Below, in pieces: positions 177 to 62,973 of a DNA stretch of 64,000 nt. This DNA comes from Candidatus Kapaibacterium sp. (lineage in GTDB: Bacteria > Bacteroidota > Ignavibacteria > Kapaibacteriales > JAEUSM01). A model generated the notes under the pieces. That model ran no database searches. It saw only the letters and a list, made by a program, of their open reading frames with translations, and had not been told where the DNA came from. The stretch lies in contig JAEUSM010000013.1 in assembly GCA_016788785.1 (NCBI GenBank), positions 56,771-120,770 of the forward strand, read 5' to 3'. Within the stretch, counting starts at the first letter, position 1; each line of letters begins with the position of its first letter. Position numbers and translations under genes: made by a program.

Positions 177-2531
177 TTAGTATAACGCTGATTTTACAAA
201 GAAGGTTTCCATTTCCCCTTTGCCTTTAATATAAATCATTCCTCGAGAAACAAATTCGAACTCTCCTTCATATTGTTCTAAAGCAGATTTCATTTCTTTA
301 GAAATATGAATTTTACCTGGTGAACCATGTGATTCCATTCTCGAAGCAGTATTAACGACATCTCCCCAAACATCATAGGCAATTTTCTTAGTTCCAATAA
401 CTCCGGCTACCGTTTCACCAGTATGAATGCCTATTCTCATTAAGAGATTAAGTCCCTCTTTTTCTATGAATTTTTTAATCCATTGTGAACAATCGATAGC
501 AAATTTTGTAATTAAATATGCATGATGTTCTTGATATTCTGGCACTCCTGATGCAACCATATAAGCATCACCAATGGTTTTGATTTTCTCTAAACCATAC
601 CGTTCTGCTATTGTATCAAATTCTGTAAAAATAGTAGAAAGTAGCTGCACAATTTTGACAGGATCAGAACTTTTTGCATATTCGGTAAAACCTGCTAAAT
701 CTGCAAAAAGGATGGTTGTATGAGGAAATTTTTCCGCAATGAGTTTTTCACCTTCTTTAAGCCGTTGAGAAATACTCTTTGGCAAAATGGTATCTAAAAG
801 TCGCTCTGTCTCACGATTTGCAAGTATCAACTCATCATTTTTTATAGCCAATTCTTGTGTTTGTTTTGCTACTTCATCTCGCAAGGATTGATTATAATTT
901 TTGAGTAACTCTTCTGCTTGTTTTTGTTCTGATATATCGCGAATGAATGCTGAAAAAGAATACGTATTTTCTGTTTTAATTGGCAAAATTGTTAACTCTA
1001 CTGGAATTATAACTCCATCTTTTCGAATTGCTGTTATTTCAATTCTAGAATGAAGCACCTTGTATTCTCCAGTAGTCATGAAACGTTGCAATCCTTTTTC
1101 ATGAGCTATTCGATATTCAGGTGGTATAATAAAATCAGAAAGCTTATTGCCAAGTACTTCTTCTGAAGTCCAACCAAATATTTTTTCTGCTTGTGGATTC
1201 CAAGTAGTAACATTACCATTTTGATCCATTGAAATAACTCCGTCAAGTGCAGAATCCAAAATTTGTTTCATACGTTCATTGGAAAGCTGTTGTTCAGACA
1301 TCTTCACATTTGCCAAATCCAATTGAATTACCATTGATTGTAACTTAGAATTTTTTTCTTTACTTTCAGATTCAATTTGAATTTCATCATACCGTTTGAA
1401 ATACACCAATGCATCTTTATAGTTACCTTGCAGTTCCAATAACTGAGAATGCATCTTATATGCTTGCAATCTCATTACAGGATTATCTTCAATATCTAAC
1501 AGTGAATAGGTTGCTTCTAATATTTCTTCTGTTTTTTCATAGTTTTTCAATTCAAAATACAAAAAACCAATGAGTAAATTGTTTGAGATTCTTTGACTAA
1601 ACAATGGCAGTTTGTCTAAATACAATTGTGTCTCTTGAGCAAATTTTAGAGCTTGTTCAAACTTTTTTTGTGAATAGAAAACAGTTGCTTTTGAATGCAA
1701 TACACTTGCCAAATACCGTTTTTCTTCAATATTTGATGTAAGACTTATTGCCTCATCAAGTAGTTCATCGATTTCTTGATAATATTCTAAATCCCTATAA
1801 ACTTCAACTAAATTTTTTATTCCATTACAATATCCATCAATGATAGATAGATGTTTACATATCTCTATAGACTCTTTGAAATACTCTATTGCACGCTTTA
1901 TATTATCAAATTTGTAGCTTAATGTTCCCAAGTTGTGAAGCAACTGTGCTTTTAAATGTGCGTCTTTCGATTTATGAGTATATTCTAAACTTTTGTGATA
2001 GTATTTGAATGATTCTTGATATTCCTTTTTCGTATCATGAATCATTCCTAATAACATAAATGAATATGCCAATCCTTTATCATCATTTCGATGATTTTTA
2101 ATTTGTATGCTTTTAAATGAAGTTTCAATTGCTTCATCAAATAGTTTTACTTGAAAATAAGCACGTGAAAGGTTACTATAGACTATTGCTAAATCTCGAG
2201 AGGAATCATTCACATCAAAAATCGAAATTGCTTTTTGAAAACAAGGAATTGCTTCTTGGAAGTATTCTAAATTTATTAGCAGTTTCCCAACTTGAATTGA
2301 ATATTCCTTGACTATTTCATGGTCGTTTTGAGCTTCAGCTAACGCAATTATTTCGTAATAACATGAAATAGCTTGTTCATAATCGTGAACTGCACTAAAC
2401 TCTTCAATAGTAGTTTGAAGTGTTTGTAATTGTTTTTGATAATTTTTCTGTTCCAATGTTTTTATTTCAATTATTGGGGTGTTTTTTAGGCGTTTGATTA
2501 CTAATTTACTACTATTTATTGCCGTGAACAA
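177..2531 (-). CDS. TPR-repeat / PAS-domain / class III adenylate (nucleotidyl) cyclase
   Basis: 784-aa ORF. The N-terminus has TPR-like repeats and a central PAS-like segment ('LDSALDGVISMDQNGNVTTWNPQAEKIFGW...'). The C-terminal class III cyclase catalytic domain carries the diagnostic motifs 'ILFADLAGFTEY', 'IKTIGDAYMVASG' and 'RIGIHTGETVAGVIG...YDVWGDVVNTASRMES'. Confidence 0.85.
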   Translation of the reverse strand: MFTAINSSKLVIKRLKNTPIIEIKTLEQKNYQKQLQTLQTTIEEFSAVHDYEQAISCYYEIIALAEAQNDHEIVKEYSIQVGKLLINLEYFQEAIPCFQKAISIFDVNDSSRDLAIVYSNLSRAYFQVKLFDEAIETSFKSIQIKNHRNDDKGLAYSFMLLGMIHDTKKEYQESFKYYHKSLEYTHKSKDAHLKAQLLHNLGTLSYKFDNIKRAIEYFKESIEICKHLSIIDGYCNGIKNLVEVYRDLEYYQEIDELLDEAISLTSNIEEKRYLASVLHSKATVFYSQKKFEQALKFAQETQLYLDKLPLFSQRISNNLLIGFLYFELKNYEKTEEILEATYSLLDIEDNPVMRLQAYKMHSQLLELQGNYKDALVYFKRYDEIQIESESKEKNSKLQSMVIQLDLANVKMSEQQLSNERMKQILDSALDGVISMDQNGNVTTWNPQAEKIFGWTSEEVLGNKLSDFIIPPEYRIAHEKGLQRFMTTGEYKVLHSRIEITAIRKDGVIIPVELTILPIKTENTYSFSAFIRDISEQKQAEELLKNYNQSLRDEVAKQTQELAIKNDELILANRETERLLDTILPKSISQRLKEGEKLIAEKFPHTTILFADLAGFTEYAKSSDPVKIVQLLSTIFTEFDTIAERYGLEKIKTIGDAYMVASGVPEYQEHHAYLITKFAIDCSQWIKKFIEKEGLNLLMRIGIHTGETVAGVIGTKKIAYDVWGDVVNTASRMESHGSPGKIHISKEMKSALEQYEGEFEFVSRGMIYIKGKGEMETFFVKSALY

Positions 2532-5169: not shown

Positions 5170-5295
5170 CAATTTCCTCCAAAGGAGGGGAATTTGACCG
5201 ATAAACTGTAGAAACAAGGCATGCCCTGTCCCTACAAAAACACGATAACACCCTCGCCCCTATGGGGAGAGGGATGGGGAGAGGGGTCATTTACA
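5170..5295. repeat. GC-rich mosaic hairpin array 1, comprising a short CCTCC-AAA-GGAGG hairpin, a degenerate 30-bp palindrome and the 'CCCTCGCCCC-N-GGGGAGAGGG-TGGGGAGAGGGG' module
   Basis: The span 5251-5290 'ccctcgcccctatggggagagggatggggagaggggtcat' recurs at 13863, 16005 (reverse complement), 32938, 34806 and 53013 (reverse complement). The span 5206-5240 is a degenerate copy of the perfect palindrome at 34973. Local GC is far above the flanking AT-rich DNA. Confidence 0.8.
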
Positions 5296-6623: not shown

Positions 6624-7205
6624 TCAAAATGTTTGTATATTTCTTATAATTGTTTGATTATTTTTGGTCATAATCAAATAATAATTTCTATATTTAATGT
6701 TTTGGATATTAATGCTTAACTTATTTTCTCCTTGATGAATAAATGCATCACCAAGTTTAATACAATTTTTTTCTAACAAATGTAATAAATAAAAACTTGC
6801 GTTACTTTCAACTTTACTAGTACATTCAACTTCAAGTATATTAGTAATTTCATTGAAATTAACTGACAAAATTGTGTTCGAAGAATTATTTATGCTTTTT
6901 AGATGTAATGGTGATTTATTTGTCCAAGTATATTTATCTACCGAAAAAAGCGAACTTCCATCTAAAAACGAAGCATCAATTTGAATAGACTGTTCAATTG
7001 TACCATGTAAAGATAATTTTCCATCTTTTTTTGATAATTTCCATCTTTCAAAACCAAGTTTATTGTATTTTTCTCCATTTAATAATTCAAATTCAAACTG
7101 CTTAAAATTTTTAGTTAAAGAACTTTGAGATTGAATAGTATTTTGTGCCTGAACTATTAATGCAGAAAAAATACAGCAAAAAACAAATGTTAAAGTAGTT
7201 TTCAT
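6624..7205 (-). CDS. secreted hypothetical protein
   Basis: The 193-aa protein begins with an N-terminal signal peptide 'MKTTLTFVFCCIFSALIVQAQ'. It lies between the two Cys-rich paralogue genes in the same orientation with short gaps. Confidence 0.55.
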   Translation of the reverse strand: MKTTLTFVFCCIFSALIVQAQNTIQSQSSLTKNFKQFEFELLNGEKYNKLGFERWKLSKKDGKLSLHGTIEQSIQIDASFLDGSSLFSVDKYTWTNKSPLHLKSINNSSNTILSVNFNEITNILEVECTSKVESNASFYLLHLLEKNCIKLGDAFIHQGENKLSINIQNIKYRNYYLIMTKNNQTIIRNIQTF

Positions 7206-7230
7206 ATAAACCTTATATAAATCATGATTT

Positions 7231-8715
7231 TCAATTAAGAATTATAAATTGTTTTGTGTATTGCTCTTTTCCAATAGTAAGGACTGCTTGATATGTACCT
7301 GAAGGAAATTCGATAACATCAATTGGAATTACTATTTTGCCAGTTGCTTGTTCAATTCTCATTGTTTTATGTGTAACACCTGAAACATCGACTATTGAGA
7401 GTGATGCTCCATTCAGAAAACCATAGTAATGTATCGAAAGTGTTACATTCTCTTGAACGCTTGGAATAGGATATACTTCCATTTGAATTGGTTTTTCATT
7501 TGATTTTCTCGAATCAACTGAAGATACTATTTTTGGATTTGTATAAATCAATAAAGCAAGAGGGTTTGCAAAATAAATAGTATCACCAATGTAAGCAATA
7601 TCTGTAATTGTAAAAGGATGATCAAAAAAACCACCATACCTTAATAATTTGTATCTGCTATCAATACTATCACGGGTATAAAACGTTATTTGTTCTTTTT
7701 TTGGTTTATTTTCATCAATTGTAAAAAAACCAAAATCTGTTCCACACATTTTTAATCCATTTTCTCGATTTAGTAAAATGTTATGAACTCCTAACGTAGC
7801 AGGGTATCTGTTTTTCATAAATAAACGTCCTGCTATTCCATCTGCAGAATCCCATTTCGTAATTATTCCCTCTGGTGTTATTTTATAAACACCATTATAA
7901 ACTCCTCTTATAGAATAACTATCACCGCTATTAGAAGTAAACCACATATTATTATTACCATCAAATGCCATTGATGATATTCTTCTATAAATACCGTCTA
8001 AAGAAAAAGGAATATCTGTAAAGTCAATTTTTCCATTTGAAAATGTCATTAGATTATTTATACCAGAAGCAATAATACAGACTATTGAATTATCATCTCT
8101 CTTCGCCATTGCTTGAATAGCTCCATTATCAAACCGAGGATCATAAGCAAATTTATAAATTACTTCAAATGATACTTCTTGCTTACTTGTAAATAATTTT
8201 AATAATTCATTATTAGTACTATCGTAAACAACATACTCTGTACCATTGATTGTCTCACGAAATCGTTCAAATCCAATTAAAACACTAACAAACATGTCGT
8301 TATTATTGTCAAAGCAAAAATCTCGGAATTGTCTTGTTGGCAATAAATCTGCAGGTATAGGTACTGAGTCCCATTGACCTTGTTCATATTTCCAAAGATT
8401 ATTTCTTCCGAATGTCCATATGACACCATAGTTGTCAAAATGAACTTTTGAGTTGACATTTAAACCTAAATCAATACCTTCTGTTATATTTATAAAAACC
8501 GTGTCAGCATTGGTTTTTAAATAAACTGACAAAACTCCAGTTGTTTGAAGATCTTTACCCATAATTAATACCTTATCTTGAAATGTATCTATTACCTTAG
8601 GAGCTAAGCCATCTTTGAATAAATCATCTGTTTGAGAATAAATTAAAGTATTCAAAAGAAAAAAAATTGAAATTTTAAAAGAATAAGAGAATAAATGTTT
8701 CATATTAGCAACCAT
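7231..8715 (-). CDS. secreted protein with T9SS C-terminal sorting domain (possible beta-propeller-like body)
   Basis: The 494-aa protein has a hydrophobic N-terminal signal ('ISIFFLLNTLIYSQ'). Its C-terminal ~80 aa ('LSIVDVSGVTHKTMRIEQATGKIVIPIDVIEFPSGTYQAVLTIGKEQYTKQFIILN') resemble the Por secretion tail. The 3' end overlaps the next gene by 11 nt. Confidence 0.65.
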   Translation of the reverse strand: MVANMKHLFSYSFKISIFFLLNTLIYSQTDDLFKDGLAPKVIDTFQDKVLIMGKDLQTTGVLSVYLKTNADTVFINITEGIDLGLNVNSKVHFDNYGVIWTFGRNNLWKYEQGQWDSVPIPADLLPTRQFRDFCFDNNNDMFVSVLIGFERFRETINGTEYVVYDSTNNELLKLFTSKQEVSFEVIYKFAYDPRFDNGAIQAMAKRDDNSIVCIIASGINNLMTFSNGKIDFTDIPFSLDGIYRRISSMAFDGNNNMWFTSNSGDSYSIRGVYNGVYKITPEGIITKWDSADGIAGRLFMKNRYPATLGVHNILLNRENGLKMCGTDFGFFTIDENKPKKEQITFYTRDSIDSRYKLLRYGGFFDHPFTITDIAYIGDTIYFANPLALLIYTNPKIVSSVDSRKSNEKPIQMEVYPIPSVQENVTLSIHYYGFLNGASLSIVDVSGVTHKTMRIEQATGKIVIPIDVIEFPSGTYQAVLTIGKEQYTKQFIILN

Positions 8716-10436: not shown

Positions 10437-10610
10437 TGCCCCCTCACCCCAGCCCTCACCCTCGTAGGGGAGAGGGAGTTGATTTTTGGTGGAAAGTTGT
10501 TCTATAAATATGTGACCACTCCGTGTCAAGAGAAGCCACCCCGCCACACTTCGACTTCGCTCAGTGACCAGTGGCACCCCTCCTAATTTAGGAGGGGAGT
10601 TTGACCCCAC
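10437..10610. repeat. GC-rich mosaic hairpin array 2
   Basis: The span 10437-10488 'cccctcaccccagccctcaccctcgtaggggagagggag' matches module A-prime at 34726 and the reverse complement at 53146. The span 10535-10581 'gccaccccgccacacttcgacttcgctcagtgaccagtggcacccc' matches module D, with reverse-complement copies at 32882 and 34914 and a variant at 53246. The span 10575-10597 holds the perfect hairpin 'cccctcctaatttaggagggg'. Confidence 0.8.
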
Positions 10611-13924: not shown

Positions 13925-15898
13925 TTACTTCCCTTTCTCCAACCAAAATGTGTTCATTGTTCCTTTTCCTTTAATGGAAATTTCTCCACGTGGAATGAGT
14001 GAAAATTCTTGGTGTGATTCGATGGATTTTGCGAATTGTTCACTGATGTGGATGCGACCGGCCTCTGAGTTTGATTCCATTCGTGAGGCTACATTTACTG
14101 CATCGCCCCATAGGTCATAGGTGTATTTGTTTTTGCCAATGATACCTGCAACGACTTCACCAGTGTGAATACCGATGCGAATTTCGATGTTGTTCATATT
14201 CTTTATCCATTCAGTAGCACCCAAATCTGATGGAATATTGACTACAAAATCTTTCATAGTTTCGAGAAGTTGCAGCGCAGCAAGTGCGGTTGCTTTTTGG
14301 TGTTCTTTGAGCGGAGTAGTCACATTCGCTACAGCCAAATACCCATCACCAATGGTTTTTATTTTTTCTAAACCAAAGGTTTCCACCACTTCATCTGCTT
14401 TTTGGAAAATTGCATCGAGTAAGAAGACAAGTTGTTTTGGTGGTGCAATGGATGCGAGTGTTGTAAACCCAACCAAATCCATAAAAAGTACAGAAGCAGT
14501 TTCAAAGTGGTCGGCAATAGGATTTTCACCCTTTACCAAACGATCTGTTACAGAATCAGGAAGTATATTTCGAAGGATACTTTCTCGCCCTAATAATTTT
14601 CCTCGTTCTTCAGCTATTTTAATTTCTTGTTCCGCTAATTTACGTTGGAGGTGAAAATTATCTGCTTGTTTTTTTGCTTCGATAGTTTGGATTTCTTTTT
14701 CTAAGGAAACGAATTTTTTGTGATATTCTAAAGATTCTTCAAATCTCATTTCATTTTGTCGTAACGTATGAATATGTTCATATGCATCTTTAATTATATC
14801 TTTTGCACCGATTTCTTCTGCAAGTAGTAGCGACTTTTGCAAATATTCTTCTGCTTTTTTTGTATCATAGTACGCTGATTCTTTTGTTGAGTATACACTT
14901 CCGATATTTCCGAGATTTTTTGCAATAGTATTTTTTCTCCCAATTACTTGGGAGATTTGTAAAGCTTTTGAGTAAAATTCCAAGGCTTGTGAGTCATCAG
15001 AAAGTTCCTTGTATACATTACCAATATTTCCAAGATTTGTAGCAATACCATCATTGTTTCTACTTTCTTCATTGATGTGTAAAGCTTTTGAATAATACTC
15101 TAACGCTTTGGGGTAGTCTGAAAGTTTTTTGTAAATAACTCCAATATTACCAAGGTTAGATGCAATACCATTTTTGTTTCCAATTTCTTTATTTATATGT
15201 AAAGTTTGATGAAAATACTCTAAGGCTTTTTGGTAATCAGAAAGATTTGCGTAAACAGTCCCAATATTACCAAGCGCATTTGCTTGAAATTGCTTATGTC
15301 CTATTTCTTCTGTGATTAATAATGCCTTTCCATAGAACTCTAATGCTTTCTGATAGTCAGAAAGTTCCTTGAAAACATTACCAATATTCACCAAATTTCC
15401 ACTAATTTCACCTTTATTTCCAATTTCTTCATTAATAAGTAGTGCTTTTGAATAAAACTCTAATGCATTTGGATATTCTGATAGATACCATTTAACACTC
15501 CCAATATTCCCAAAGTTTCTAGCAATTCCATTTTTGTTGCCAATTTCTTCAAAAATTTTTAACGCTTTTGAAAAATACTCTAAAGCTTTAGGGTAGTCTG
15601 AAAGAATCTGGTAAACTATACCAATATTCCCAAGATTATTTGCAATTTCACCTTTGTTTCCTCTTTTTTCATAGATGTGTAGTGATTTTTCATAATATTC
15701 TATTGCTTTGAAACAGTCTGAAAGATAACTGTATATAGCCCCAAGATAACTACAGACCTTTGCAAGTGAATTAGGGTCTTCTTGGATTGCTTTATTCTCT
15801 ATGAGTTCTTCAGCAAATGATTTTGCTTCTTGATTTTGTGATTTATTCACCAAATCTTTTAATTTTTCAATTGAGGCATTTATATCTTCGGGAGTCAT
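13925..15898 (-). CDS. TPR-repeat class III adenylate cyclase (paralogue 2)
   Basis: The 657-aa protein has about eight 40-aa TPR-like units ('NLGNIG.VY..LSDYPKALEYYSKAL.I.EEIGNK.GIA.'), then a coiled-coil and a cyclase catalytic domain ('VLFMDLVGFT', 'IKTIGDGYLAV', 'RIGIHTGEVVAGIIGKNKYTYDLWGDAVNVASRMES'). It is roughly 88% identical at the DNA level to 50935..52974 in the C-terminal half. Confidence 0.85.
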   Translation of the reverse strand: MTPEDINASIEKLKDLVNKSQNQEAKSFAEELIENKAIQEDPNSLAKVCSYLGAIYSYLSDCFKAIEYYEKSLHIYEKRGNKGEIANNLGNIGIVYQILSDYPKALEYFSKALKIFEEIGNKNGIARNFGNIGSVKWYLSEYPNALEFYSKALLINEEIGNKGEISGNLVNIGNVFKELSDYQKALEFYGKALLITEEIGHKQFQANALGNIGTVYANLSDYQKALEYFHQTLHINKEIGNKNGIASNLGNIGVIYKKLSDYPKALEYYSKALHINEESRNNDGIATNLGNIGNVYKELSDDSQALEFYSKALQISQVIGRKNTIAKNLGNIGSVYSTKESAYYDTKKAEEYLQKSLLLAEEIGAKDIIKDAYEHIHTLRQNEMRFEESLEYHKKFVSLEKEIQTIEAKKQADNFHLQRKLAEQEIKIAEERGKLLGRESILRNILPDSVTDRLVKGENPIADHFETASVLFMDLVGFTTLASIAPPKQLVFLLDAIFQKADEVVETFGLEKIKTIGDGYLAVANVTTPLKEHQKATALAALQLLETMKDFVVNIPSDLGATEWIKNMNNIEIRIGIHTGEVVAGIIGKNKYTYDLWGDAVNVASRMESNSEAGRIHISEQFAKSIESHQEFSLIPRGEISIKGKGTMNTFWLEKGK

Positions 15899-15929
15899 AG
15901 TTTTGTTGGAAGGTTGTATTGGTTTTTTG

Positions 15930-16245
15930 TCGTACGAATATACGAAAATAAGGGCATTCAGCCACTATCTAAAGATAGTGGAAATTCAAAACATTAGAAC
16001 ATGTACCCCCTCTCCCCGTACCCTCTCCCCAAAGGGGCGAGGGAGTTATCGTGTTTTTTGTAGTGACGCACAATTTGCATCTCTGAAGAAACCACCCCGA
16101 CCTTCGGTCACCCTTCCAAAGGAGGGGAATAGACCAACAACCCACAATTTCCAACATAGGGCTTACACTCTATGCAGTGATAGTACGCCCCTTCAGGGCT
16201 TGACCTCTCTGATTTTTGAGACGCCCATATAGGGCGTCTCTACGA
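15930..16245. repeat. GC-rich mosaic hairpin array 4, in the divergent intergenic region between adenylate cyclase 2 and nnr
   Basis: Module B 'gccactatctaaagatagtgg' is at 15961-15981 and module A (reverse complement) at 16005-16045. A degenerate module C is at 16058-16090, followed by 'ccttccaaaggaggggaa' and module G 'gccccttcagggcttgacc' at 16194-16214. The module C palindrome 'gagacgcccatatagggcgtctc' sits at 16217-16241. The first ~130 bp are collinear with array 7 (52950-53100). Confidence 0.8.
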
Positions 16246-34720: not shown

Positions 34721-35005
34721 TATTACCCCTCACCCCAGCCCTCTCCCTCAAAGGGAGAGGGAGTTTACTAATAACATTCTCTAATATTTCAAAATATAGG
34801 TTGTTCCCTCGCCCCATTGGGGAGAGGGTTAGGGAGAGGGGGTTTTTCTTCATAAATGGGCGTAAGCAATACGCCCCTACAATACCAATAAACGATAAGT
34901 TCCCCTCTTGAGGGGTGTCACCGGTCACTGATCGTAGTCGAAGTGTGGCGGGGTGGAATCGTCATCGAAACGTGTAGAGACAGGGCATGCCCTGTCTCTA
35001 CAAAA
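34690..35005. repeat. GC-rich mosaic hairpin array 6
   Basis: Module F is followed by module A-prime (34726-34765) and module A (34806-34845). The hairpin 'gggcgtaagcaatacgccc' is at 34858-34877, module E 'cccctcttgagggg' at 34902-34915 and module D (reverse complement) at 34914-34958. A perfect 30-bp palindrome 'tgtagagacagggcatgccctgtctctaca' occupies 34973-35002. Confidence 0.8.
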
Positions 35006-49961: not shown

Positions 49962-50855
49962 ATGAATTCTTTTTTAACTTCTCTTTTCTTGTTCGTAACT
50001 ATTTGTTCATTGACATTAAGCAATTTATACGCTCAAGATAGTTTGTATACTATCAAAGCCTATGAATATTCGTTACTTTCTAATCCTATAACGAAGCTTA
50101 AAGTACAATGGAATATACCTCAATTGTTTCCAACGAACAACTCAAAACTTCCGAAAGACTCTCCCATCTTAAGGAATTTTTTATCAATAAACAGACAGAT
50201 TCTCCAACAAACAATTCTCTTGGTAACTGATTATAAAGAACAGGCAAAGGTTCAAAAAAACATCAAAAACTATCCGTTTGAGGAATTGGATACTACCTTA
50301 CAAGTATTAGCAACCATCATAAGTCAATCTCAAGCGAATATTACCGAAGACTCCCTTATCAAAAAAGGTGGCTCAGTGATGGAATATGAAGTTTTGCATA
50401 AAGACAGCAAATTAGTATCAATTAATCAATTCTATTCACCTACTTCGGAGGACTTGGCAACGTTTTTTGTATCCTTTGCAAGTTATTATCTTCCAACTGG
50501 CGAGAAATTGGATATCAGCACTATGCTCGATGAGAAAAAAACATACTTCCTTGTTGAGGCAATTTCCTCACGCGTGAGTGACATTTCTAACAATGAAACT
50601 ACATGGCAACAATATGCAGAAGCTGTTCGAGATATTTATACCTACTGTAAATCAAAAACGAAAAATCAACAACAACTGTCATCTATGTTTTGGAAAGAAT
50701 TACAACTGGATCATTACTTCACCCCAACCCATTTAGTTTTGTGGACACCATTAGAAAACTCAACATCTATCCTCGAATCTGATGTATTGGAAGTCCCATT
50801 GTCATTATTTTCAAAAGCCATGAAGCCAAAGTATCAGAAGATGTTTGTGAAATAA
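49962..50855 (+). CDS. secreted hypothetical protein
   Basis: The 297-aa protein has a signal peptide ('MNSFLTSLFLFVTICSLTLSNLYAQ') and no recognisable motifs. Confidence 0.5.
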   Translation: MNSFLTSLFLFVTICSLTLSNLYAQDSLYTIKAYEYSLLSNPITKLKVQWNIPQLFPTNNSKLPKDSPILRNFLSINRQILQQTILLVTDYKEQAKVQKNIKNYPFEELDTTLQVLATIISQSQANITEDSLIKKGGSVMEYEVLHKDSKLVSINQFYSPTSEDLATFFVSFASYYLPTGEKLDISTMLDEKKTYFLVEAISSRVSDISNNETTWQQYAEAVRDIYTYCKSKTKNQQQLSSMFWKELQLDHYFTPTHLVLWTPLENSTSILESDVLEVPLSLFSKAMKPKYQKMFVK

Positions 50856-50934
50856 ACATAACATTTCTATAAACGGCTGAGGTTCTCGAAGCCATTGTAA
50901 TTATAACGGTGGTTTCGAGTGCCTCAACCACCCT

Positions 50935-52974
50935 TTACTTCCCCTTTTCCAACCAAAAGGTATTCATTGTTCCTTTGCCTTTTATGGAAATTTCTCCTCT
51001 GGGTATGAGTGAGAATTCTGGGTATGATTCGATTGATTTTGCAAATTGTTCGCTGATGTGGATACGACCAGCTTCTGAGTTAGATTCCATACGTGAGGCT
51101 ACGTTTACTGCATCTCCCCAGAGGTCATAGGTGTATTTGTTTTTGCCGATGATACCTGCAACGACTTCACCTGTGTGGATTCCAATGCGAATTTCGATAT
51201 CGTTCATATCCTTTATCCAATTGGTATCACCCAAATCTGATGGAATATTGACGACAAAGTCTCGCATTGTTATGAGAAGTTGGAGTGCAGCTTGGGCAGT
51301 TGCTTTTTGGTGATTTTCGAGGGGAGTTGTTACATTGCCTACTGCCAAATACCCATCACCAATGGTTTTGATTTTTTCTAAACCGAATGTTTCAACCACT
51401 TCATCCGCTTTTTGGAAGATAGCGTCAAGAAGATAAACAATTTGCTTTGGTGGTGCAATCGAGGCAAGTGACGTAAACCCAACCAAATCCATAAAAAGAA
51501 CAGAAGCAGTTTCAAAGTGGTCGGCAATAGGATTTTCGCCCTTTACTAAGCGATCAGTTACAGAATCAGGAAGTATATTTCGAAGAATACTTTCACGTTC
51601 TTCGTATCTTGCTCTTTCAACAGCTATTTGTTTTTCACGTTCAGCTGTTTTACGTTCATTGTCAAATCGATCTGCTTGTTTTTTTGCTTCGATGGATTGA
51701 ATTTCTTTTTCGAGTGCTATAGATTTAGTTTGAAATTCTAAAGCTTCTTTATAATGTTCTTCGTTTAGTCTAAGCTTATGTAATTGTTCATAAGCTTCTT
51801 TTCTTACAACTTTTGCACCTATTTCCTCAGCTAAAACTAACGATTTTTGAAGATACACTTCTGCTTTTTTTACATCATAGTATGTTGATTCTTTGGTTGC
51901 ATAAACAGACCCAATATTCCCAAGGTTACTTGCAATACCGACTTTATTCCCAATTTCTTCATTGATGTGAAATGCTTTTGAGTAATACTCTATAGCTTTG
52001 GGGTAGTCCGAAAGACTCTTGTAAACAATCCCAATATTCCCAAGGTTTATTGCAATCCCAACTTTGTTTCCAATTTCTTCATTGATATGTAATGCTTTTG
52101 TATAATACTCTAATGCTTTGGGGTAGTCTGAAAGATTCCAGTAAACAATCCCAATATTCATAAGGTTAGTTGCAATTCCAACTTTATTCCCAATTTCTTC
52201 AAAAATAGGTAATGCTTTTGAGTAATACTCTAATGCTTTTGGGTAGTCCGATAGATTAGAATAAACATTCCCAATACTCACAAGGTTACTTACAATTCCT
52301 AATTTGTTTCCAATTTCTTCAAAAATAAGTAATGCTTTTGAATAATACTCTAATGCTTTGGGGTAGTCCGAAAGATCTGAGTAAACAAGCCCAATATTCC
52401 CAAGGTTAGCTGCATTACCATATTTACTTCCAATTTCTTCACCGATGTGTAATGCTTTTGAGTAATACTCTAATGCTTTGGGGTAGTCCGAAAGATAATT
52501 ATAAACATTCCCAATATTCCCAAGGTTACTTGCAATACCAACCTTGTTTCCAATTTCTTCTAATATGAGTAATGCTTTTGAATAATACTCTAATGCTTTG
52601 GGGTAGTCCGAAAGATCTGAGTAAACAAGCCCAATATTCCCAAGGACACTAGCAATACCTCTTTTGTTTTCAATTTCTTCAGAGATAAGCAATGACTTTG
52701 AAAGATACTCTAATGCTTTGGGGTAGTCCGAAAGATTCCAGTAAACAATCCCAAGTGAATTATAGACCTCTGCAAGAGATTTGGCATCGTCTTGGATTGC
52801 TTGTTGTTCCAAGAGTTCGTAAGCAAATACCTTTGCTTCTTGATTTTGAGAAGTTCTCCAAAGATTATCTAATTTTTCTTTTGCTTGTTGTATTTCTTCG
52901 GGTGTCATTACGGTTTTGGAAGGTTGCATTGGATTTTGTCGTACGAATATACAAAAATAACGACATTCAGCCAC
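50935..52974 (-). CDS. TPR-repeat class III adenylate cyclase (paralogue 3)
   Basis: The 679-aa protein has a catalytic domain almost identical to that of 13925..15898 ('ILPDSVTDRLVKGENPIADHFETASVLFMDLVGFT...IKTIGDGYLAV...RIGIHTGEVVAGIIGKNKYTYDLWGDAVNVASRMES'). It contains about seven near-identical 40-aa TPR units. Confidence 0.85.
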   Translation of the reverse strand: MAECRYFCIFVRQNPMQPSKTVMTPEEIQQAKEKLDNLWRTSQNQEAKVFAYELLEQQAIQDDAKSLAEVYNSLGIVYWNLSDYPKALEYLSKSLLISEEIENKRGIASVLGNIGLVYSDLSDYPKALEYYSKALLILEEIGNKVGIASNLGNIGNVYNYLSDYPKALEYYSKALHIGEEIGSKYGNAANLGNIGLVYSDLSDYPKALEYYSKALLIFEEIGNKLGIVSNLVSIGNVYSNLSDYPKALEYYSKALPIFEEIGNKVGIATNLMNIGIVYWNLSDYPKALEYYTKALHINEEIGNKVGIAINLGNIGIVYKSLSDYPKAIEYYSKAFHINEEIGNKVGIASNLGNIGSVYATKESTYYDVKKAEVYLQKSLVLAEEIGAKVVRKEAYEQLHKLRLNEEHYKEALEFQTKSIALEKEIQSIEAKKQADRFDNERKTAEREKQIAVERARYEERESILRNILPDSVTDRLVKGENPIADHFETASVLFMDLVGFTSLASIAPPKQIVYLLDAIFQKADEVVETFGLEKIKTIGDGYLAVGNVTTPLENHQKATAQAALQLLITMRDFVVNIPSDLGDTNWIKDMNDIEIRIGIHTGEVVAGIIGKNKYTYDLWGDAVNVASRMESNSEAGRIHISEQFAKSIESYPEFSLIPRGEISIKGKGTMNTFWLEKGK
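51895..52765 (-). repeat. about seven tandem copies of a 120-bp (40-codon) repeat inside the adenylate cyclase 3 coding sequence
   Basis: The 120-bp unit 'caatttcttc...aatgcttttgagtaatactctaatgctttggggtagtccgaaagat...gtaaacaa.cccaatattcccaaggtta.ttgcaat.cc.a.tttgtttc' recurs with roughly 85-95% identity. Each copy encodes one 'NLGNIG.VY.(N/D)LSDYPKALEYYSKAL' unit. Confidence 0.85.
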
Positions 52975-53300
52975 TATCTAAAGATAGTGGCACTTCGTAT
53001 ATGGAAATTTGTCCCCCCTCTCCCCGTACCCTCTCCCCAAAGGGGCGAGGGAGTTGTTTTGTTCTTGTAGAGACGCACGGACGTGCGTCTCTGAAGATTC
53101 CACCCCGCCATTTAATGGCACCCCTCAAGAGGGGAACCCAAAGATATCTCCCTCTCCCCTTGAGGGAGAGGGTTGGGGTGAGGGGTCATTCTGAATCAAT
53201 GGGCAGACTCGTAGGTCTGCCCCTATAAAATTTCAAAAAAGTTCGACCTCGCCACATTACGACTACGCTCAGTGACCATGGCAGTCCTTAAGAGGGGAAC
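52950..53300. repeat. GC-rich mosaic hairpin array 7
   Basis: Module B 'gccactatctaaagatagtggc' is at 52970-52991 and module A (reverse complement) at 53013-53053. Module C 'gagacgcacggacgtgcgtctc' is at 53070-53091 and the hairpin 'gccatttaatggc' at 53107-53119. Module E 'cccctcaagagggg' is at 53122-53135 and module A-prime (reverse complement) at 53146-53190. The hairpin 'gggcagactcgtaggtctgccc' is at 53200-53222, module D at 53246-53283 and module E 'ccttaagagggg' at 53286-53297. Confidence 0.8.
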
Positions 53301-53345
53301 CAACATTTTTACAATCATTTGATGACTTATGTTGTCGAAATTGAC

Positions 53346-53380
53346 CAAAAAAAAACCTACTGTTTTCAGTAGGTTTTTTC
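53346..53380. terminator. bidirectional intrinsic terminator downstream of the SDR gene
   Basis: The sequence 'aaaaaaaaacctactgttttcagtaggttttttc' is a stem flanked by an A9 run and a T6 run. Confidence 0.7.
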
Positions 53381-53404
53381 ATTTTGAAGCCATGATAAAA
53401 CAAC

Positions 53405-54217
53405 TTATTGTTGTTCCCACCATGTAAGGTCGATAGAATCTTCACCTCCGTCAACACCAAGTACTGTTCCATTGATCCAGGCAGCTTCTTTTTGAGAAAG
53501 AAGTACTAACACATTGGCAACATCTTCTGGAGTTGTCAATTTGTGGAAAGGATTGCGGTTGTATGCATTAGCTATCAATTTGTCATTTCCTGGAATTTTG
53601 CGAAGTGCCGGTGTGTCAGTTACTCCTGCTCGAATAGTATTGCAGGTTACATTGTATGGAGCTAATTCTAACGCCAATTGTCGTGTGTACGACTCCAAAG
53701 CCGCTTTTGCTGCAGAAACCGCACCATAGGTAGGTATTGCACGATTAGAGCCAGAACTTGTAAGAGATGCTACACGCCCACCTTGAGAGAACAGACCTGC
53801 AGAAATGAGATCTTGTGTCCAATAGATAAGCGAATTAGCCATCACATCCATTGTCATTTCAATACTTTTTTGGGTAATAGAATCAGTTGGTTTTTCAGCA
53901 ATGAATGGTTTCAATGTTCCAAACGCTAATGAATGTAACATAAACCAAACTGCTCCACCAGTTTGATTGCAACGATTTTTGATTGCTTCCACAACGGTTG
54001 CACGGTTAGTAGCATCAGCAGCATTCACATTGAAAAATTCAGCTGTAACACCTTTTGCAGTTATTTCTGTTTTTAATTCTTCGACCGCTGCCAAACCTGC
54101 CGCTCTATCTAAATGAACACCAATGATGTGATATCCTTTTTCCGCCAATGCCAAACAAGCCGCTTTACCAAAACCGCTTGAGGCTCCTAAAATGACCGCA
54201 TATAATGGTGTACTCAT
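53405..54217 (-). CDS. short-chain dehydrogenase/reductase (SDR) family oxidoreductase, enoyl-ACP-reductase-like
   Basis: The dinucleotide-binding motif is 'AVILGASSGFGKAACLALAEKGYHIIGV', and the catalytic region contains '...YGAVSAAKAALES'. The start is taken at 'MSTPLY', while the ORF maximum is 54265. Confidence 0.7.
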   Translation of the reverse strand: MSTPLYAVILGASSGFGKAACLALAEKGYHIIGVHLDRAAGLAAVEELKTEITAKGVTAEFFNVNAADATNRATVVEAIKNRCNQTGGAVWFMLHSLAFGTLKPFIAEKPTDSITQKSIEMTMDVMANSLIYWTQDLISAGLFSQGGRVASLTSSGSNRAIPTYGAVSAAKAALESYTRQLALELAPYNVTCNTIRAGVTDTPALRKIPGNDKLIANAYNRNPFHKLTTPEDVANVLVLLSQKEAAWINGTVLGVDGGEDSIDLTWWEQQ

Positions 54218-54305
54218 TCTCAATCTTTCTATGTCTAAAGGTATAATTTTGAAATATATATACAAAAATACAAAGATTCTATCAAAATAGAAAGTTTATA
54301 GAAAT

Positions 54306-60996: not shown

Positions 60997-62973
60997 TTAT
61001 TCAACTATTTCTTCGTGATTTTTGGGTAATGAACATAAAATTCTCCAACCCTCACGTATTAGTTTCATAGTCTTTTCAATTTCATTTTCTTCCAAAGGAT
61101 TATCTACCAAATCAATGGTTATATCTTTGTTCGTTCGTTGTTGTGCAAATTTTGGAAGTTTTCGAAGTTCATTTTTTGAAATATACACAAATTCCAATTT
61201 GGGAAAATTTTGTATTTCAATTAAACTAATCTGATTATTTGAGCAAATCAATCGTTGAAGCCGTGAAAATTTCTTTCCTTTGAGTTGCACCTCCTGAATT
61301 GAATTGGAGCTAATGTCTATGACTTCAAGAAGTTTACATTCTAAAAGTTCATTCGGAAAAAATTCTAAAGAACATGAACGCAATGAAATGGAATGCAACT
61401 GTTTACAATGGAGTAATGGTGCAACATTCGTAAGAACTTCATCAGTGATTTGTAATGATTTGAGAGATGGTAGTTTTTCAATACCATCAAGTAATTGAAT
61501 TCCTGTTGACCGCAACGCAAGTGAATGTAATTTTTTTGAGACCACTCCAATTTCTGTAATATTTGATAGTGCAAACCCTGCAATAGTTACTTCTTCTAAT
61601 GAGGTATTCGAAGAGAATTGAATGGAATGCAAAGACGAATTCAAATTGAAATTTTCCAAAGAAAGTTTTTTGAGAGAACGAATTTTCGTGATTTTTTTAT
61701 ACAAATCATTAGAAAATTCGTATTCTAATTGAGAAATCGAAATCGAACAACATTGAGGAAATTTCATTCGATACATTGGTGAGTTTTTCGAAGGAACGAT
61801 TTTTACATCTGAAATAAGAAGGAATTGCAATTTCGGCAGCGATTCTATCAAGGTACAAAAATCTTGTTCTGATATTTCGCAATGAAGTAAGGACAAATAT
61901 CTAACCGAAAGGAGTGTTGAAGCAGTAAACGAGAAAATTTCACAATGTTGTACGGACAGGTATTGCAATTCATTCAATGATTTCAAATTCTCAAGTTTCA
62001 GAGTCAATGCATCAATATTTTTCATCACAATTCCGGAAATTGTTTCGAAAAATTCTGGTCGAAATTGCTCCTCCACTAACGAAGCAACCACCATCGATGC
62101 TTGTTTGGAAGCTAATAATTCTTGTGTTGTTGGTATGGTTGTAAGCTGGTATGCAGTCTCTTGAAACAATTGACCATTCATAGACACTGTTTCTAAAAAA
62201 GCAGAAACATCGTGAAAAAACTTTGGATTGTAGCTGTATTTCGTGGGTTGTTTGAACCAATGCAATCGCAAAGCATCTTTTTGTTCATCATTGAGATATT
62301 CTTTCAAATATTCTCGAGCTTGTAATCGAATTGCTTTCGAGCTTCCGAAAAGTTCTAATGCAAAGAGTGATGTCGTGATTTCATCTATTGACAAATTGTT
62401 TTGTTGGTTGGATTGCTGAAGAACTGAATTGACAAATTCTTTGACAACCAGTACATTTGTTTGAATTTGTTGAATTGAATACCGTTCAAAATATCGTTTT
62501 AGATGATATTCAACCGTCATCGGGAGTCCAAGATGTGTACACAATGACAACTCTTTTTCATTTGGTCGAACACCTAAAAGAATATGAGAATAGCGTTCTT
62601 CATTCTTTTTGGAGAAATGCTCAATGTTCCAACCAAGAGATTGTACCATTTGTTGTATAGATGGTAAGGAAAAACACAAAAGATTCCCGCAGATACCAAT
62701 GAAAACAGTATCGTTGTTAGACAGATTTTTGAAAGGATTTTCTAAAAGAAAACTCAATGAATTGAGAGCATGTGTTGCATTTTGAGCATTCCCAATTGAT
62801 AAGATTTCCAATTGTTGTTCAACGGAGGTTACTGATTCGGTGTAAACTGGATTGTAAAATTCGTCGGAATTGAAAAACGGTTGGAACGATGAATGTTTGG
62901 AAACACCCCTTCTGTTTTTTTCTTTGTATTTTGAGCGATAATCGTTGACAAATGGGTCAGGAAACTTCGACAT
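60997..62973 (-). CDS. large cytoplasmic leucine-rich-repeat protein
   Basis: The C-terminal ~300 aa contain more than ten LRRs ('LKSLQITDEVLTNVAPLLHCKQLHSISLRSCSLEFFPNELLECKLLEVIDISSNSIQEV', 'LQRLICSNNQISLIEIQNFPKLEFVYISKNELRKLP'). The N-terminal ~350 aa have no recognised domain. Confidence 0.6.
   Translation of the reverse strand: MSKFPDPFVNDYRSKYKEKNRRGVSKHSSFQPFFNSDEFYNPVYTESVTSVEQQLEILSIGNAQNATHALNSLSFLLENPFKNLSNNDTVFIGICGNLLCFSLPSIQQMVQSLGWNIEHFSKKNEERYSHILLGVRPNEKELSLCTHLGLPMTVEYHLKRYFERYSIQQIQTNVLVVKEFVNSVLQQSNQQNNLSIDEITTSLFALELFGSSKAIRLQAREYLKEYLNDEQKDALRLHWFKQPTKYSYNPKFFHDVSAFLETVSMNGQLFQETAYQLTTIPTTQELLASKQASMVVASLVEEQFRPEFFETISGIVMKNIDALTLKLENLKSLNELQYLSVQHCEIFSFTASTLLSVRYLSLLHCEISEQDFCTLIESLPKLQFLLISDVKIVPSKNSPMYRMKFPQCCSISISQLEYEFSNDLYKKITKIRSLKKLSLENFNLNSSLHSIQFSSNTSLEEVTIAGFALSNITEIGVVSKKLHSLALRSTGIQLLDGIEKLPSLKSLQITDEVLTNVAPLLHCKQLHSISLRSCSLEFFPNELLECKLLEVIDISSNSIQEVQLKGKKFSRLQRLICSNNQISLIEIQNFPKLEFVYISKNELRKLPKFAQQRTNKDITIDLVDNPLEENEIEKTMKLIREGWRILCSLPKNHEEIVE

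What the first reader, a model, noticed from the sequence alone, without database searches (positions are those of the whole stretch)
51895..52765. About seven near-identical 120-bp tandem repeats inside an adenylate cyclase gene (contingency-locus-like)
The TPR region of adenylate cyclase 3 consists of head-to-tail 120-bp units with roughly 85-95% identity, each encoding NLGNIG.VY..LSDYPKALEYYSKAL.I.EEIGNK.GIA. Adenylate cyclase 2 (13925-15898) has the same unit but with more divergence. Such in-frame, recently homogenised repeats are prone to copy-number change by slipped-strand or recombination events. That would alter the length of the sensory or scaffolding arm of a cAMP-producing enzyme, giving a possible phase- or strain-variable signalling input. 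With a third TPR-PAS cyclase at 177-2531, the window carries three TPR-cyclases, which points to a heavily expanded family.
Basis: seen in the sequence. Interest (0 to 1): 0.5.

Follow-up and report, generated by a model that had tools for sequence, protein, structure and literature searches.

The report
Repeated TPR units in a bacterial cyclase
The seven 120-bp repeats are real and encode the stacked helical (TPR) arm of a cytoplasmic cAMP-making enzyme from a heavily expanded gene family, but the copies are only about 80-90% alike and change in number over species-level time, so nothing here shows a fast genetic switch.

Summary
Tandem Repeats Finder reports 7.1 head-to-tail copies of a 120-bp unit at 51902-52754 (83% matches). 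They lie in frame in a minus-strand gene (50935-52908, 657 aa) that encodes an N-terminal cap, seven 40-residue TPR units, a degenerate eighth unit, a 60-residue helix and a class III adenylate cyclase domain with all six catalytic residues.

The stated identity is too high. The six internal units are 80-90% identical and the first is 69-77%.

Codon bias does not explain the similarity. Codon identity at same-residue sites is 0.81, against 0.48 expected and 0.58 in the sister gene.

The homogenisation is not recent either. Units are as similar to units of the syntenic ortholog in a relative with ~85% flank identity (0.82) as to each other. That matches the divergence of the one flanking gene compared (0.83).

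The ortholog has one unit fewer, and homologs carry 5-10 units. A comparable 7.1-copy array in a relative is unchanged between two contigs that are 99.84% identical.

Variable unit positions include 2, 9, 12 and 13, the canonical ligand-binding face.

Verdict: an ordinary but well-structured repeat sensor arm in an expanding, recombining paralog family. It is not a demonstrated contingency locus.

The parts
50935..52908 (-). TPR-adenylate cyclase gene ('cyclase 3'), 657 aa, identical to database protein P0001 (Candidatus Kapabacteria MAG). The mechanical ORF extends upstream to a GTG at 52974.
52774..52908 (-). N-terminal 45 residues, predicted capping helices. 95% DNA identity to the syntenic ortholog in L071.
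51934..52773 (-). Seven regular 120-bp (40-aa) TPR units. On the minus strand they run 52773-52654, 52653-52534, 52533-52414, 52413-52294, 52293-52174, 52173-52054 and 52053-51934. Consensus A-x-N-L-G-N-I-G-x-V-Y-x-x-L-S-D-Y-P-K-A-L-E-Y-Y-S-K-A-L-x-I-x-E-E-I-G-N-K-x-G-I.
51814..51933 (-). Eighth, degenerate unit (ASNLGNIGSVYATKESTYYD...). About 43% DNA identity to the regular units but positionally conserved in the relatives compared (86% to L071, 75% to cyclase 2). Probably a C-terminal cap of the array.
51574..51753 (-). Single predicted helix of 60 residues (386-445) linking the TPR array to the cyclase domain. Confidence is low in the monomer model, and I infer a dimeric coiled coil or signalling helix.
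50947..51522 (-). Class III (IIIa-like) nucleotide cyclase catalytic domain. D474, K514, D518, D595, N602 and R606 are all present and invariant in 45 homologs.
51439..51708 (-). Mosaic segment (ORF residues 423-512). It is 71-94% identical in DNA to cyclase 2 but only 53-77% (under 60% in its core) to the syntenic ortholog in L071. This indicates exchange between paralogs in one of the lineages.
52909..53200 (-). Upstream leader shared with cyclase 2 (15899-16100) and with L071. It holds G+C-rich hairpins (for example an exact 42-mer at 53014-53055 that also occurs at 16006-16047) and the palindrome CCACTATCT-TT-AGATAGTGG at 52971-52990. No Rfam family matches.
13925..15898 (-). Paralog 'cyclase 2', 657 aa, same architecture. 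Its 120-bp array at 14954-15709 has 6.3 copies at 69% matches.
177..2531 (-). Third cyclase, TPR-PAS-cyclase, 784 aa. Its catalytic domain is 44% identical to that of cyclase 3, so it belongs to a different subfamily.

Best explanation
The 120-bp array is the coding sequence of a TPR superhelix of the LGN/Pins type: seven regular 40-residue helix-turn-helix units plus a degenerate capping unit. This superhelix forms the N-terminal sensor or scaffold arm of a soluble, probably homodimeric, class III adenylate cyclase.

Shown:
- The domain order and the intact catalytic residues.
- A confident TPR model whose nearest solved folds are the peptide-binding TPR domains of LGN/Pins.
- Unit-to-unit similarity that exceeds codon-bias expectation.
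- Unit number that differs between orthologs and across homologs in exact 40-aa steps.
- Loss of one-to-one unit orthology.
- Variation concentrated at unit positions 2, 9, 12, 13, 29, 31 and 38.

Inferred:
- The units were amplified or homogenised from a consensus-like unit at about the time this lineage split from the L071 lineage. Since then they have diverged independently, apart from one gain or loss of a unit and one younger exchange between units 2 and 4.
- Unit number changes by rare unequal recombination between units.
- The concave groove binds a peptide or protein ligand. Occupancy would be passed through the long helix to the cyclase dimer to set cAMP output.
- Paralogs that differ in groove residues and unit number read different inputs.

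The process is gene-family diversification over evolutionary time, not high-frequency phase variation.
For: Architecture:
- Pfam gives TPR_12 (8.6e-74, six stretches) and Guanylate_cyc (8.9e-51).
- The AlphaFold model has mean pLDDT 87, and above 90 across the TPR region. It shows about ten helix hairpins in all, with a regular 40-residue period through the repeat units, then a 60-residue helix and the cyclase fold.
- The best Foldseek matches in the PDB are LGN/GPSM2/Pins TPR domains (E about 1e-16) and cyclase domains such as Rv1625c and the cyclase domain of rhodopsin-guanylyl cyclases.
- The sequence search of the PDB gives mycobacterial adenylate cyclases (4p2f, 3e-47), engineered consensus TPR proteins and LGN.
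- D474, K514, D518, D595, N602 and R606 are present and invariant in 45 homologs.
- There is no hydrophobic segment.

Origin of the similarity:
- Codon identity at same-residue sites is 0.81 within the array, against 0.48 expected from the window's codon usage and 0.58 for the units of cyclase 2.

Timing:
- Codon identity is 0.81 within this array, 0.85 within the L071 ortholog's array, 0.82 between the two, and 0.83 for the flanking SDR gene between the two genomes.
- The flanks are 85% identical over 10.7 kb.
- Placing the one-unit gap anywhere in the array gives 81-83% identity, so its position cannot be determined.

Unit gain and loss:
- The L071 ortholog has 6.1 copies and 617 aa.
- The 120 homologs have 5-10 units, with lengths clustering at 537, 577, 617, 657 and 698 aa.

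A younger event:
- Units 2 and 4 are 90% identical and share a 78-bp exact run.

Binding face:
- The most variable unit positions in 300 units from 60 homologs are 12, 38, 2, 29, 13, 31 and 9.
- Positions 2, 5, 9, 12 and 13 are the concave, ligand-contacting positions of TPRs (PMC1261162).
- dN/dS is 1.2-1.6 at the variable positions and 0.16-0.2 at the other positions in cyclase 3, cyclase 2 and the pooled set. In L071 the value at the other positions is 0.48.

Stability:
- A homologous 7.1-copy array at 80% matches has the same copy number in two contigs that differ by 13 SNPs in 7970 bp.
Against: - No same-species genome or read data were available for this gene, so population-level copy-number variation is untested.
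- The 78-bp exact run at a lag of two units is long enough to support homologous recombination, so occasional in-frame two-unit changes cannot be excluded.
- The dN/dS contrast is biased, because the positions were chosen for being variable.
- The timing argument rests on a single calibrating flanking gene (the SDR). That gene is unusually conserved at the protein level, and the argument assumes equal synonymous rates.
- Ligand binding, dimerisation and cAMP synthesis are inferred from homology and a model, not measured.
- All the sequences are metagenome assemblies. Short-read assemblies can mis-build internally repetitive genes, as reported for fungal repeat genes in PMC11761791.
Confidence: 0.72

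Rival explanations
1. Contingency locus. The array changes copy number at high frequency by slippage or recombination, which would give phase-variable or strain-variable cAMP signalling within populations.
For: - The array is in frame and tandem, and its synonymous similarity exceeds codon-bias expectation.
- It contains a 78-bp exact run at a lag of 240 bp and a 34-bp run at a lag of 120 bp.
- Unit number differs between orthologs and across the family.
Against: - Units are 80-90% identical rather than near-identical.
- Divergence between units equals the divergence between genomes at about 85% DNA identity, so homogenisation is old.
- A sister array of equal similarity is unchanged between two 99.84%-identical contigs.
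- The protein is cytoplasmic.
- Described contingency loci depend on hypermutable simple sequence repeats (PMC5084427 and PMC6321876, listed).
- From general knowledge, not tested here: recombination between sequences that are 10-20% diverged is strongly suppressed.
Confidence: 0.07
2. A diversifying receptor repertoire, analogous to fungal NLR genes whose repeats have high internal conservation. Ongoing unit shuffling and exchange between paralogs, with diversifying selection on groove residues, would generate new recognition specificities. cAMP would be the output.
For: - Units are 80-90% identical and variability is confined to a few positions that include the canonical binding face.
- dN/dS is at or above 1 at those positions.
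- Array length differs between orthologs.
- One-to-one unit orthology is lost.
- There is a mosaic segment shared with a paralog.
- The family is large and includes five genes in tandem.
- The gene is present or absent at a syntenic site.
- The fungal precedent is described in PMC11761791.
Against: - Similarity within the gene is not higher than similarity between orthologs (0.81 against 0.82), so concerted evolution since the split is not detectable.
- The dN/dS test is biased by the way the sites were chosen.
- There is no NACHT or NB-ARC NTPase domain.
- Neighbouring genes are housekeeping genes, and there is no defence context.
- No population data exist.
Confidence: 0.15
3. Constraint only. 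The units look alike because a consensus TPR is strongly selected and codon usage is biased, with no shared recent ancestry or exchange.
For: - Scaffold positions are nearly invariant across 300 units.
- dN/dS at scaffold positions is 0.16-0.2 in cyclase 3, cyclase 2 and the pooled set.
- The DNA consensus units are very similar in several genomes.
Against: - Codon identity at same-residue sites is 0.81, against 0.48 expected.
- The units of cyclase 2 encode the same consensus yet reach only 0.58, and synonymous differences between them are about twice as frequent.
Confidence: 0.04
4. Assembly artefact. The number or order of units was mis-built in a short-read metagenome assembly.
For: - All the sequences are metagenome-assembled.
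- Repeat genes are known to be mis-assembled from short reads (PMC11761791).
- The related contig L069 ends inside repeat-rich intergenic DNA.
Against: - Every unit here is distinct, with 10-31% pairwise differences, and exact in-register runs are no longer than 78 bp.
- The reading frame is intact.
- Independent assemblies give the same architecture in steps of whole units.
- Two independent assemblies of a sister array agree.
Confidence: 0.02

Closest known systems
TPR domains of LGN/GPSM2 and Pins (PDB 3sf4, 6hc2, 4wnd, 4a1s)
   Same: These are the best structural matches to the repeat region (Foldseek E about 1e-16, TM-score normalised to the target 0.5-0.6) and strong sequence matches (about 4e-39). 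From the entry titles, the solved structures are complexes with partner proteins or peptides (Inscuteable, NuMA, Frmpd4, Frmpd1). From my own knowledge, not tested here: they have eight TPR units of about 40 residues with an LGN-type helix A motif, and the partner peptide lies in the inner groove.
   Different: They are eukaryotic polarity proteins with only 22-27% identity and no cyclase domain. Their units are much less alike internally. No ligand is known for the bacterial protein.
Class IIIa adenylate cyclases such as Mycobacterium tuberculosis Rv1625c/Cya (PDB 4p2f, 7yz9, 7yzk)
   Same: The catalytic domain is 37-40% identical (3e-47 by sequence; TM-score normalised to the target about 0.8). 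The two metal-binding Asp, the Lys and Asp that specify substrate, and the Asn and Arg that stabilise the transition state are all present. A helical segment precedes the catalytic domain.
   Different: Rv1625c is a membrane protein with six transmembrane helices. This protein is soluble and has a TPR array as its N-terminal module.
Fungal NLR/HNWD genes whose repeats have high internal conservation (het-d and het-e of Podospora anserina; PMC11761791)
   Same: - Repeats are more than 80% identical within a gene.
- A few positions on the binding surface are hypervariable.
- Repeat number is polymorphic.
- Paralogs recombine with each other.
- The paralog family is large.
   Different: - In the fungal genes the repeats are WD40 (or ANK/TPR) units attached to a NACHT/NB-ARC NTPase, and concerted evolution and polymorphism within the species are demonstrated.
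- Here there is no NTPase.
- Within-gene similarity does not exceed between-ortholog similarity.
- No within-species polymorphism was seen.
Simple-sequence-repeat contingency loci (Neisseria, Haemophilus, Campylobacter; PMC5084427, PMC6321876)
   Same: Both are tandem DNA repeats inside a gene whose copy number could change.
   Different: Contingency loci use perfect repeats of 1-8 bp that slip at high frequency. They usually shift the reading frame of surface or restriction-modification genes. Here the units are 120 bp and 80-90% identical, changes stay in frame, and the product is a cytoplasmic enzyme.
Designed consensus TPR proteins (CTPR; PDB 9qhb, 8bu0, 2fo7, 1na0)
   Same: An engineered TPR protein is the best sequence match in the PDB (4.8e-62). 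This reflects how close the natural units are to a TPR consensus.
   Different: The designed proteins use identical 34-residue units. Here the units are 40 residues with variable groove positions, and they are fused to an enzyme.
Pycsar cyclases (PycC) of anti-phage defence
   Same: The cyclase fold is homologous, with weak PADLOC matches (best 53 bits, 5.6e-15).
   Different: The score is far below the Pfam adenylate/guanylate cyclase match (172 bits). No effector gene lies next to the cyclase, and the neighbours are housekeeping genes. The Lys/Asp substrate pair points to ATP.

Membership tests
Class III adenylate/guanylate cyclase (Pfam PF00211) | Catalytic domain matches the family model above its curated threshold | tested here: met
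   172.5 bits against a cut-off of 21.9, covering profile positions 4-182 of 183. Solved cyclases match at about 1e-47 and with a TM-score normalised to the target of 0.8-0.9.
Class III adenylate/guanylate cyclase (Pfam PF00211) | Six canonical catalytic residues: two metal-binding Asp, substrate-specifying Lys and Asp (the adenine-specific pair), and transition-state Asn and Arg | tested here: met
   D474, D518, K514, D595, N602 and R606 were located by motif and by the alignment to 4p2f. All six are invariant in 45 homologs. The assignment of roles follows my own knowledge of Rv1625c.
Class III adenylate/guanylate cyclase (Pfam PF00211) | Dimerisation and measurable cAMP synthesis | not testable with these tools
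   This needs purified protein. The long helix before the domain is only suggestive.
TPR repeat proteins, 40-residue LGN/TPR_12 type | Repeated helix-turn-helix units that match TPR profiles and form a continuous solenoid | tested here: met
   TPR_12 at 8.6e-74 with six stretches. The model has pLDDT above 90 and paired helices with a regular 40-residue period. The best folds are the TPR domains of LGN/Pins.
Contingency (phase-variable) locus | A hypermutable tract: a perfect simple sequence repeat or near-identical longer units | tested here: not met
   83% matches overall and 80-90% between internal units. The longest in-register exact run is 34 bp at a lag of 120 bp and 78 bp at a lag of 240 bp.
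Contingency (phase-variable) locus | Copy number varies among closely related strains or within a population | tested here: inconclusive
   No sequence closer than about 81% to this gene was found. The ortholog at about 85% flank identity has one unit fewer. A homologous 7.1-copy array is unchanged between two contigs that are 99.84% identical. Read-level data are not available.
Contingency (phase-variable) locus | The change switches or alters a surface-exposed or otherwise selected variable product | tested here: not met
   There is no hydrophobic segment (maximum Kyte-Doolittle value 1.55 over 19 residues), so the protein is a soluble cytoplasmic enzyme. Changes in unit number would stay in frame.
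Repeats with high internal conservation under concerted evolution (fungal NLR type) | Repeats more than about 80% identical within a gene | tested here: met
   The internal units are 80-90% identical in DNA and 72-90% in protein. The gene ranks 5th of 119 homologs for inner-unit identity.
Repeats with high internal conservation under concerted evolution (fungal NLR type) | Units within a gene are more alike than units of orthologous genes, which is the signature of ongoing homogenisation | tested here: not met
   Codon identity is 0.81 within the gene and 0.82 against the ortholog's units. DNA identity is 0.84 and 0.81.
Repeats with high internal conservation under concerted evolution (fungal NLR type) | Hypervariable positions on the binding surface under diversifying selection | tested here: inconclusive
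   Variable positions 2, 9, 12 and 13 coincide with the canonical concave-face positions. dN/dS there is 1.2-1.6, but the sites were chosen for being variable and no phylogenetic site model was run.
Repeats with high internal conservation under concerted evolution (fungal NLR type) | A STAND NTPase (NACHT or NB-ARC) between the effector and the repeats | tested here: not met
   Pfam finds only TPR families and Guanylate_cyc.
Pycsar anti-phage system | A cyclase paired with an adjacent effector gene that senses a cyclic nucleotide | tested here: not met
   PycC matches are weak, at most 53 bits. The neighbours are an SDR reductase, a solute-binding protein, an isochorismatase and a hypothetical protein.

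The most novel reading that the evidence does not exclude
The TPR-cyclases of Kapabacteria may form a diversifying intracellular receptor repertoire, a bacterial counterpart of fungal NLR genes whose repeats have high internal conservation. Gain, loss and shuffling of units, exchange between paralogs, and gain or loss of whole genes would keep producing new groove specificities. These would be read out as cAMP, so different strains would sense different peptide or protein cues.
Probability: 0.15. Interest if true: 0.6.

Novelty: new member of a known kind. Interest (0 to 1): 0.3.

Why it matters
The finding corrects an appealing but unsupported idea, that this is a phase-variable cAMP switch. 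What remains is a clear case of how a repeat sensor arm evolves. The scaffold stays close to a consensus, a handful of groove positions vary, whole units are added or removed in 40-residue steps, and the gene family grows by duplication, insertion and exchange between paralogs. If the groove does bind ligands, the dozens of paralogs would be natural variants of one scaffold joined to an output (cAMP) that is easy to measure. That could help in studying how TPR length and groove residues set signalling specificity. The practical importance is modest, because the architecture and the evolutionary processes are already known in other systems.

Tried and rejected
- Search for the same species, to test copy-number variation directly. 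The protein's 90% cluster has one member and the next best hit is about 81% identical. The species-representative genome collection held nothing closer than 56%. The one metagenome scan, run with the neighbouring SDR gene, gave relatives at about 85% and about 73% DNA identity only.\n- Placing the one-unit indel relative to L071. Identity is 81-83% wherever the gap is put, so its position cannot be determined.\n- A second ortholog pair, L068 and L069 (665 and 582 aa). Their downstream flanks are 98.4% identical but the genes only about 82%. I do not rely on this. L069 starts inside repeat-rich intergenic DNA, the same G+C-rich element lies on both sides of its gene, and the gene is 96% identical to one in a different context in L070. 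A chimeric assembly therefore cannot be excluded.\n- Upstream leader as a known RNA element. No Rfam match reached a gathering score. The weak hits lie at the terminator of the upstream gene.\n- Defence-system reading. There are only weak PycC matches and no effector neighbour.\n- Look-ups of P0045 and P0008 for synteny. Neither is on record.\n- Literature search for Kapabacteria together with adenylate cyclase. No papers were found.
Full report
**Observation**

Tandem Repeats Finder reports a 120-bp period at 51902-52754 with 7.1 copies, 83% matches and score 1093. The repeat finder places seven copies in exact 120-bp register. The array lies in frame on the minus strand in the ORF 50935..52974. 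The database protein P0001 is annotated as a tetratricopeptide repeat protein from a Candidatus Kapabacteria metagenome-assembled genome, on a contig of 134,729 bp. It equals this ORF from Met23, so the gene is 50935-52908 and encodes 657 aa.

Pfam finds TPR_12 (8.6e-74) followed by Guanylate_cyc (8.9e-51).
- The gene at 13925-15898 has the same unit at 69% matches.
- The gene at 177-2531 is a TPR-PAS-cyclase.
- tblastn finds exactly three cyclase domains in the window.

The one inaccuracy is the stated identity. The six internal units are 80-90% identical in DNA, the first is 69-77% identical to the others, and a degenerate eighth unit follows at about 43%.

**Anatomy**

The AlphaFold model was built with 45 homologs and has mean pLDDT 87, with values above 90 through the TPR region. 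It shows:
- an N-terminal cap;
- paired helices with a regular 40-residue period through the repeat units, about ten hairpins in all;
- a single 60-residue helix (386-445) that is poorly defined in the monomer model;
- a cyclase fold.

Foldseek against the PDB ranks the TPR domains of LGN/GPSM2/Pins first (E about 1e-16). Bacterial and eukaryotic class III cyclase domains, including Rv1625c, follow. The sequence search of the PDB agrees, and its best TPR match is an engineered consensus TPR protein.

The residues I take to be the two metal-binding Asp, the adenine-specifying Lys and Asp, and the transition-state Asn and Arg are D474, D518, K514, D595, N602 and R606. I assigned their roles from knowledge of Rv1625c. 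All six are invariant in the 45-sequence alignment. There is no hydrophobic segment. The product is therefore most likely a soluble, active adenylate cyclase with a TPR arm.

**Is the DNA similarity only constraint plus codon bias?**

No. At positions where two units encode the same residue, the codon is identical in 0.81 of cases. The window's codon usage predicts 0.48. The units of cyclase 2 encode the same consensus and reach only 0.58. Synonymous differences between units are about half as frequent in cyclase 3 (0.18-0.47) as in cyclase 2 (0.32-0.79).

**Is the homogenisation recent?**

Only in a relative sense. A metagenome scan with the adjacent SDR gene recovered a syntenic locus, L071. 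Its upstream flank is 85% identical over 10.7 kb. It carries the orthologous cyclase, with the same leader and an N-terminus that is 95% identical.

The codon identities compare as follows:

| Comparison | Codon identity at same-residue sites |
|---|---|
| Units within the window gene | 0.81 |
| Units within the L071 gene | 0.85 |
| Window units against L071 units | 0.82 |
| Flanking SDR gene between the two genomes | 0.83 |

These values fit a burst of amplification or homogenisation at about the time the two lineages split, followed by independent decay. They give no sign of continued concerted evolution. The calibration rests on this single flanking gene.

One-to-one orthology of internal units is lost. 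Only the first and last units pair up (83% and 86%), and the one-unit gap can be placed anywhere at 81-83% identity.

One younger event is visible. Units 2 and 4 are 90% identical and share a 78-bp exact run.

**Copy-number change**

The L071 ortholog has 6.1 copies and 617 aa, one unit fewer. Among 120 homologs, a unit profile finds 5-10 units per protein. Lengths cluster at 537, 577, 617, 657 and 698 aa, which is exact 40-residue steps. So whole units are gained and lost and the products stay intact.

On a short time scale the only available test points to stability. A homologous 7.1-copy array (80% matches) in P0010 was assembled independently from two samples. The two contigs differ by 13 substitutions in 7970 bp and by no indel. 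No closer relative of cyclase 3 itself exists in the collections searched, so its own population variation remains untested.

**Where the units vary**

In 300 internal units from the 60 best homologs the scaffold is nearly invariant. Positions 12, 38, 2, 29, 13, 31 and 9 are highly variable. The unit's numbering coincides with canonical TPR numbering (L4, I7, G8, Y11, A20, Y24, A27). Positions 2, 5, 9, 12 and 13 are the concave, ligand-contacting positions of TPRs (PMC1261162).

dN/dS is 1.2-1.6 at the seven variable positions. At the other positions it is 0.16-0.2 in cyclase 3, cyclase 2 and the pooled set, and 0.48 in L071. This contrast is inflated because the sites were chosen for being variable. 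I read it as compatible with a ligand-binding groove that differs between units and paralogs, not as proof of positive selection.

**Family dynamics**

The gene is missing from the syntenic site in more distant relatives. In L072 and L073 the SDR gene and the 297-aa gene are 71 bp apart. The cyclase is therefore a gene-level insertion or loss.

Residues 423-512 of the ORF are 71-94% identical in DNA to cyclase 2 but only 53-77% (under 60% in the core) to the syntenic ortholog. This indicates exchange between paralogs in one of the lineages.

The catalytic domains of all six compared genes show a star-like pattern, with 83-90% DNA identity (83-87% for all pairs but one) and codon identity of 0.59-0.78.

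Related contigs carry several members each. One, L151, has five TPR-cyclase genes in tandem.

The neighbours of cyclase 3 are housekeeping genes and the defence-system models match only weakly.

**Mechanism proposed**

Shown: the architecture, the intact active site, the TPR solenoid, the step-wise variation in unit number and the variable groove positions.

Inferred:
- The groove binds a peptide or protein.
- The long helix forms a dimeric coiled coil that couples occupancy of the TPR arm to the geometry of the cyclase dimer, and so to cAMP output.
- Paralogs with different groove residues and unit numbers read different inputs.
- Unit number changes by rare unequal recombination between units. 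From general knowledge, not tested here, 10-20% divergence should make such events far rarer than at simple-sequence contingency loci.

**Comparison with known systems**

This is a member of two known kinds: class III adenylate cyclases and TPR proteins of the 40-residue LGN/TPR_12 type.

It resembles fungal NLR genes whose repeats have high internal conservation (PMC11761791). The shared features are internal identity above 80%, a few variable surface positions, length differences and exchange between paralogs. It fails two of their defining features: there is no excess of within-gene over between-ortholog similarity, and there is no NTPase domain.

It does not meet the features of a contingency locus.

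I found no paper on adenylate cyclases of Kapabacteria. Large cyclase families are known elsewhere, for example 22 in Arthrospira platensis (PMC2853384).

**Verdict**

The feature is real and the description is essentially correct apart from the identity figure. The functional interpretation as a contingency-like locus is not supported. It is a new member of a known kind, of modest interest. The remaining possibility worth testing is that the family works as a diversifying receptor repertoire.

Noticed in passing
window 50855-53406; L072 1029-1101; L073 10820-10892: The whole cyclase 3 gene is missing from the syntenic site in two more distant relatives (about 72-75% DNA identity). There the SDR gene and the 297-aa gene are 71 bp apart. 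In L071 the gene is present but synteny breaks downstream of it. This is a gene-level insertion or loss.
   Followed up: partly
window 51439-51708 (ORF residues 423-512): This segment is 71-94% identical in DNA to cyclase 2 but only 53-77% (under 60% in its core) to the syntenic ortholog in L071. The mosaic suggests gene conversion between paralogs in one of the lineages.
   Followed up: partly
window 52909-53200 and 15899-16100; also 5262-5285, 10459-10596, 34745-34914; L069 88-130 and 2274-2512: G+C-rich palindromic elements (CCCTC...GAGGG hairpins) occur in several intergenic regions of this 35% G+C genome: 6 matches against 0.1 expected. They sit upstream of cyclases 2 and 3, with an exact shared 42-mer. 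In L069 they lie on both sides of the cyclase gene, together with a 49-bp tandem repeat. They look like REP- or MITE-like repeats and could be recombination substrates or the cause of assembly breaks.
   Followed up: partly
window 52971-52990 and 15962-15981; L071 11118-11137: A perfect palindrome, CCACTATCT-TT-AGATAGTGG, lies about 60 bp upstream of the start codon of cyclase 3, cyclase 2 and the L071 ortholog. It is absent from the other 149 loci fetched at that point. It may be an operator or a leader hairpin. No Rfam family matches.
   Followed up: partly
L151 2082-9974 (ENA ERZ27292800 k141_401662): Five TPR-cyclase genes (573, 657, 611, 613 and 612 aa) lie head to tail on one strand in a related genome. 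The family also expands by tandem gene duplication.
   Followed up: no
L151 compared with L152, positions 6846-7739: Twelve of the 13 substitutions between two otherwise identical contigs from two samples fall within about 900 bp of the third cyclase paralog. This could be a local conversion tract or a mixture of strains in the assembly.
   Followed up: no
L068 2865-4862 compared with L069 528-2276; L070 6001-7746: The downstream flanks are 98.4% identical over 5.8 kb, but the cyclase genes are only about 82% identical and differ by 83 aa. The L069 gene is 96% identical to a gene in a different genomic context in L070. This is either replacement of a whole gene by a paralog or a chimeric assembly at the flanking repeats.
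   Followed up: partly
window 53405-54265: The SDR/enoyl-reductase-like protein is 99% identical at the protein level to its L071 ortholog, although the surrounding DNA is about 85% identical. This gene is under unusually strong purifying selection.
   Followed up: no
window 60997-62973: A 658-aa protein with leucine-rich repeats (LRR_4, 4.5e-13) lies near the end of the window and is conserved in L071. It is another repeat protein in the neighbourhood.
   Followed up: no
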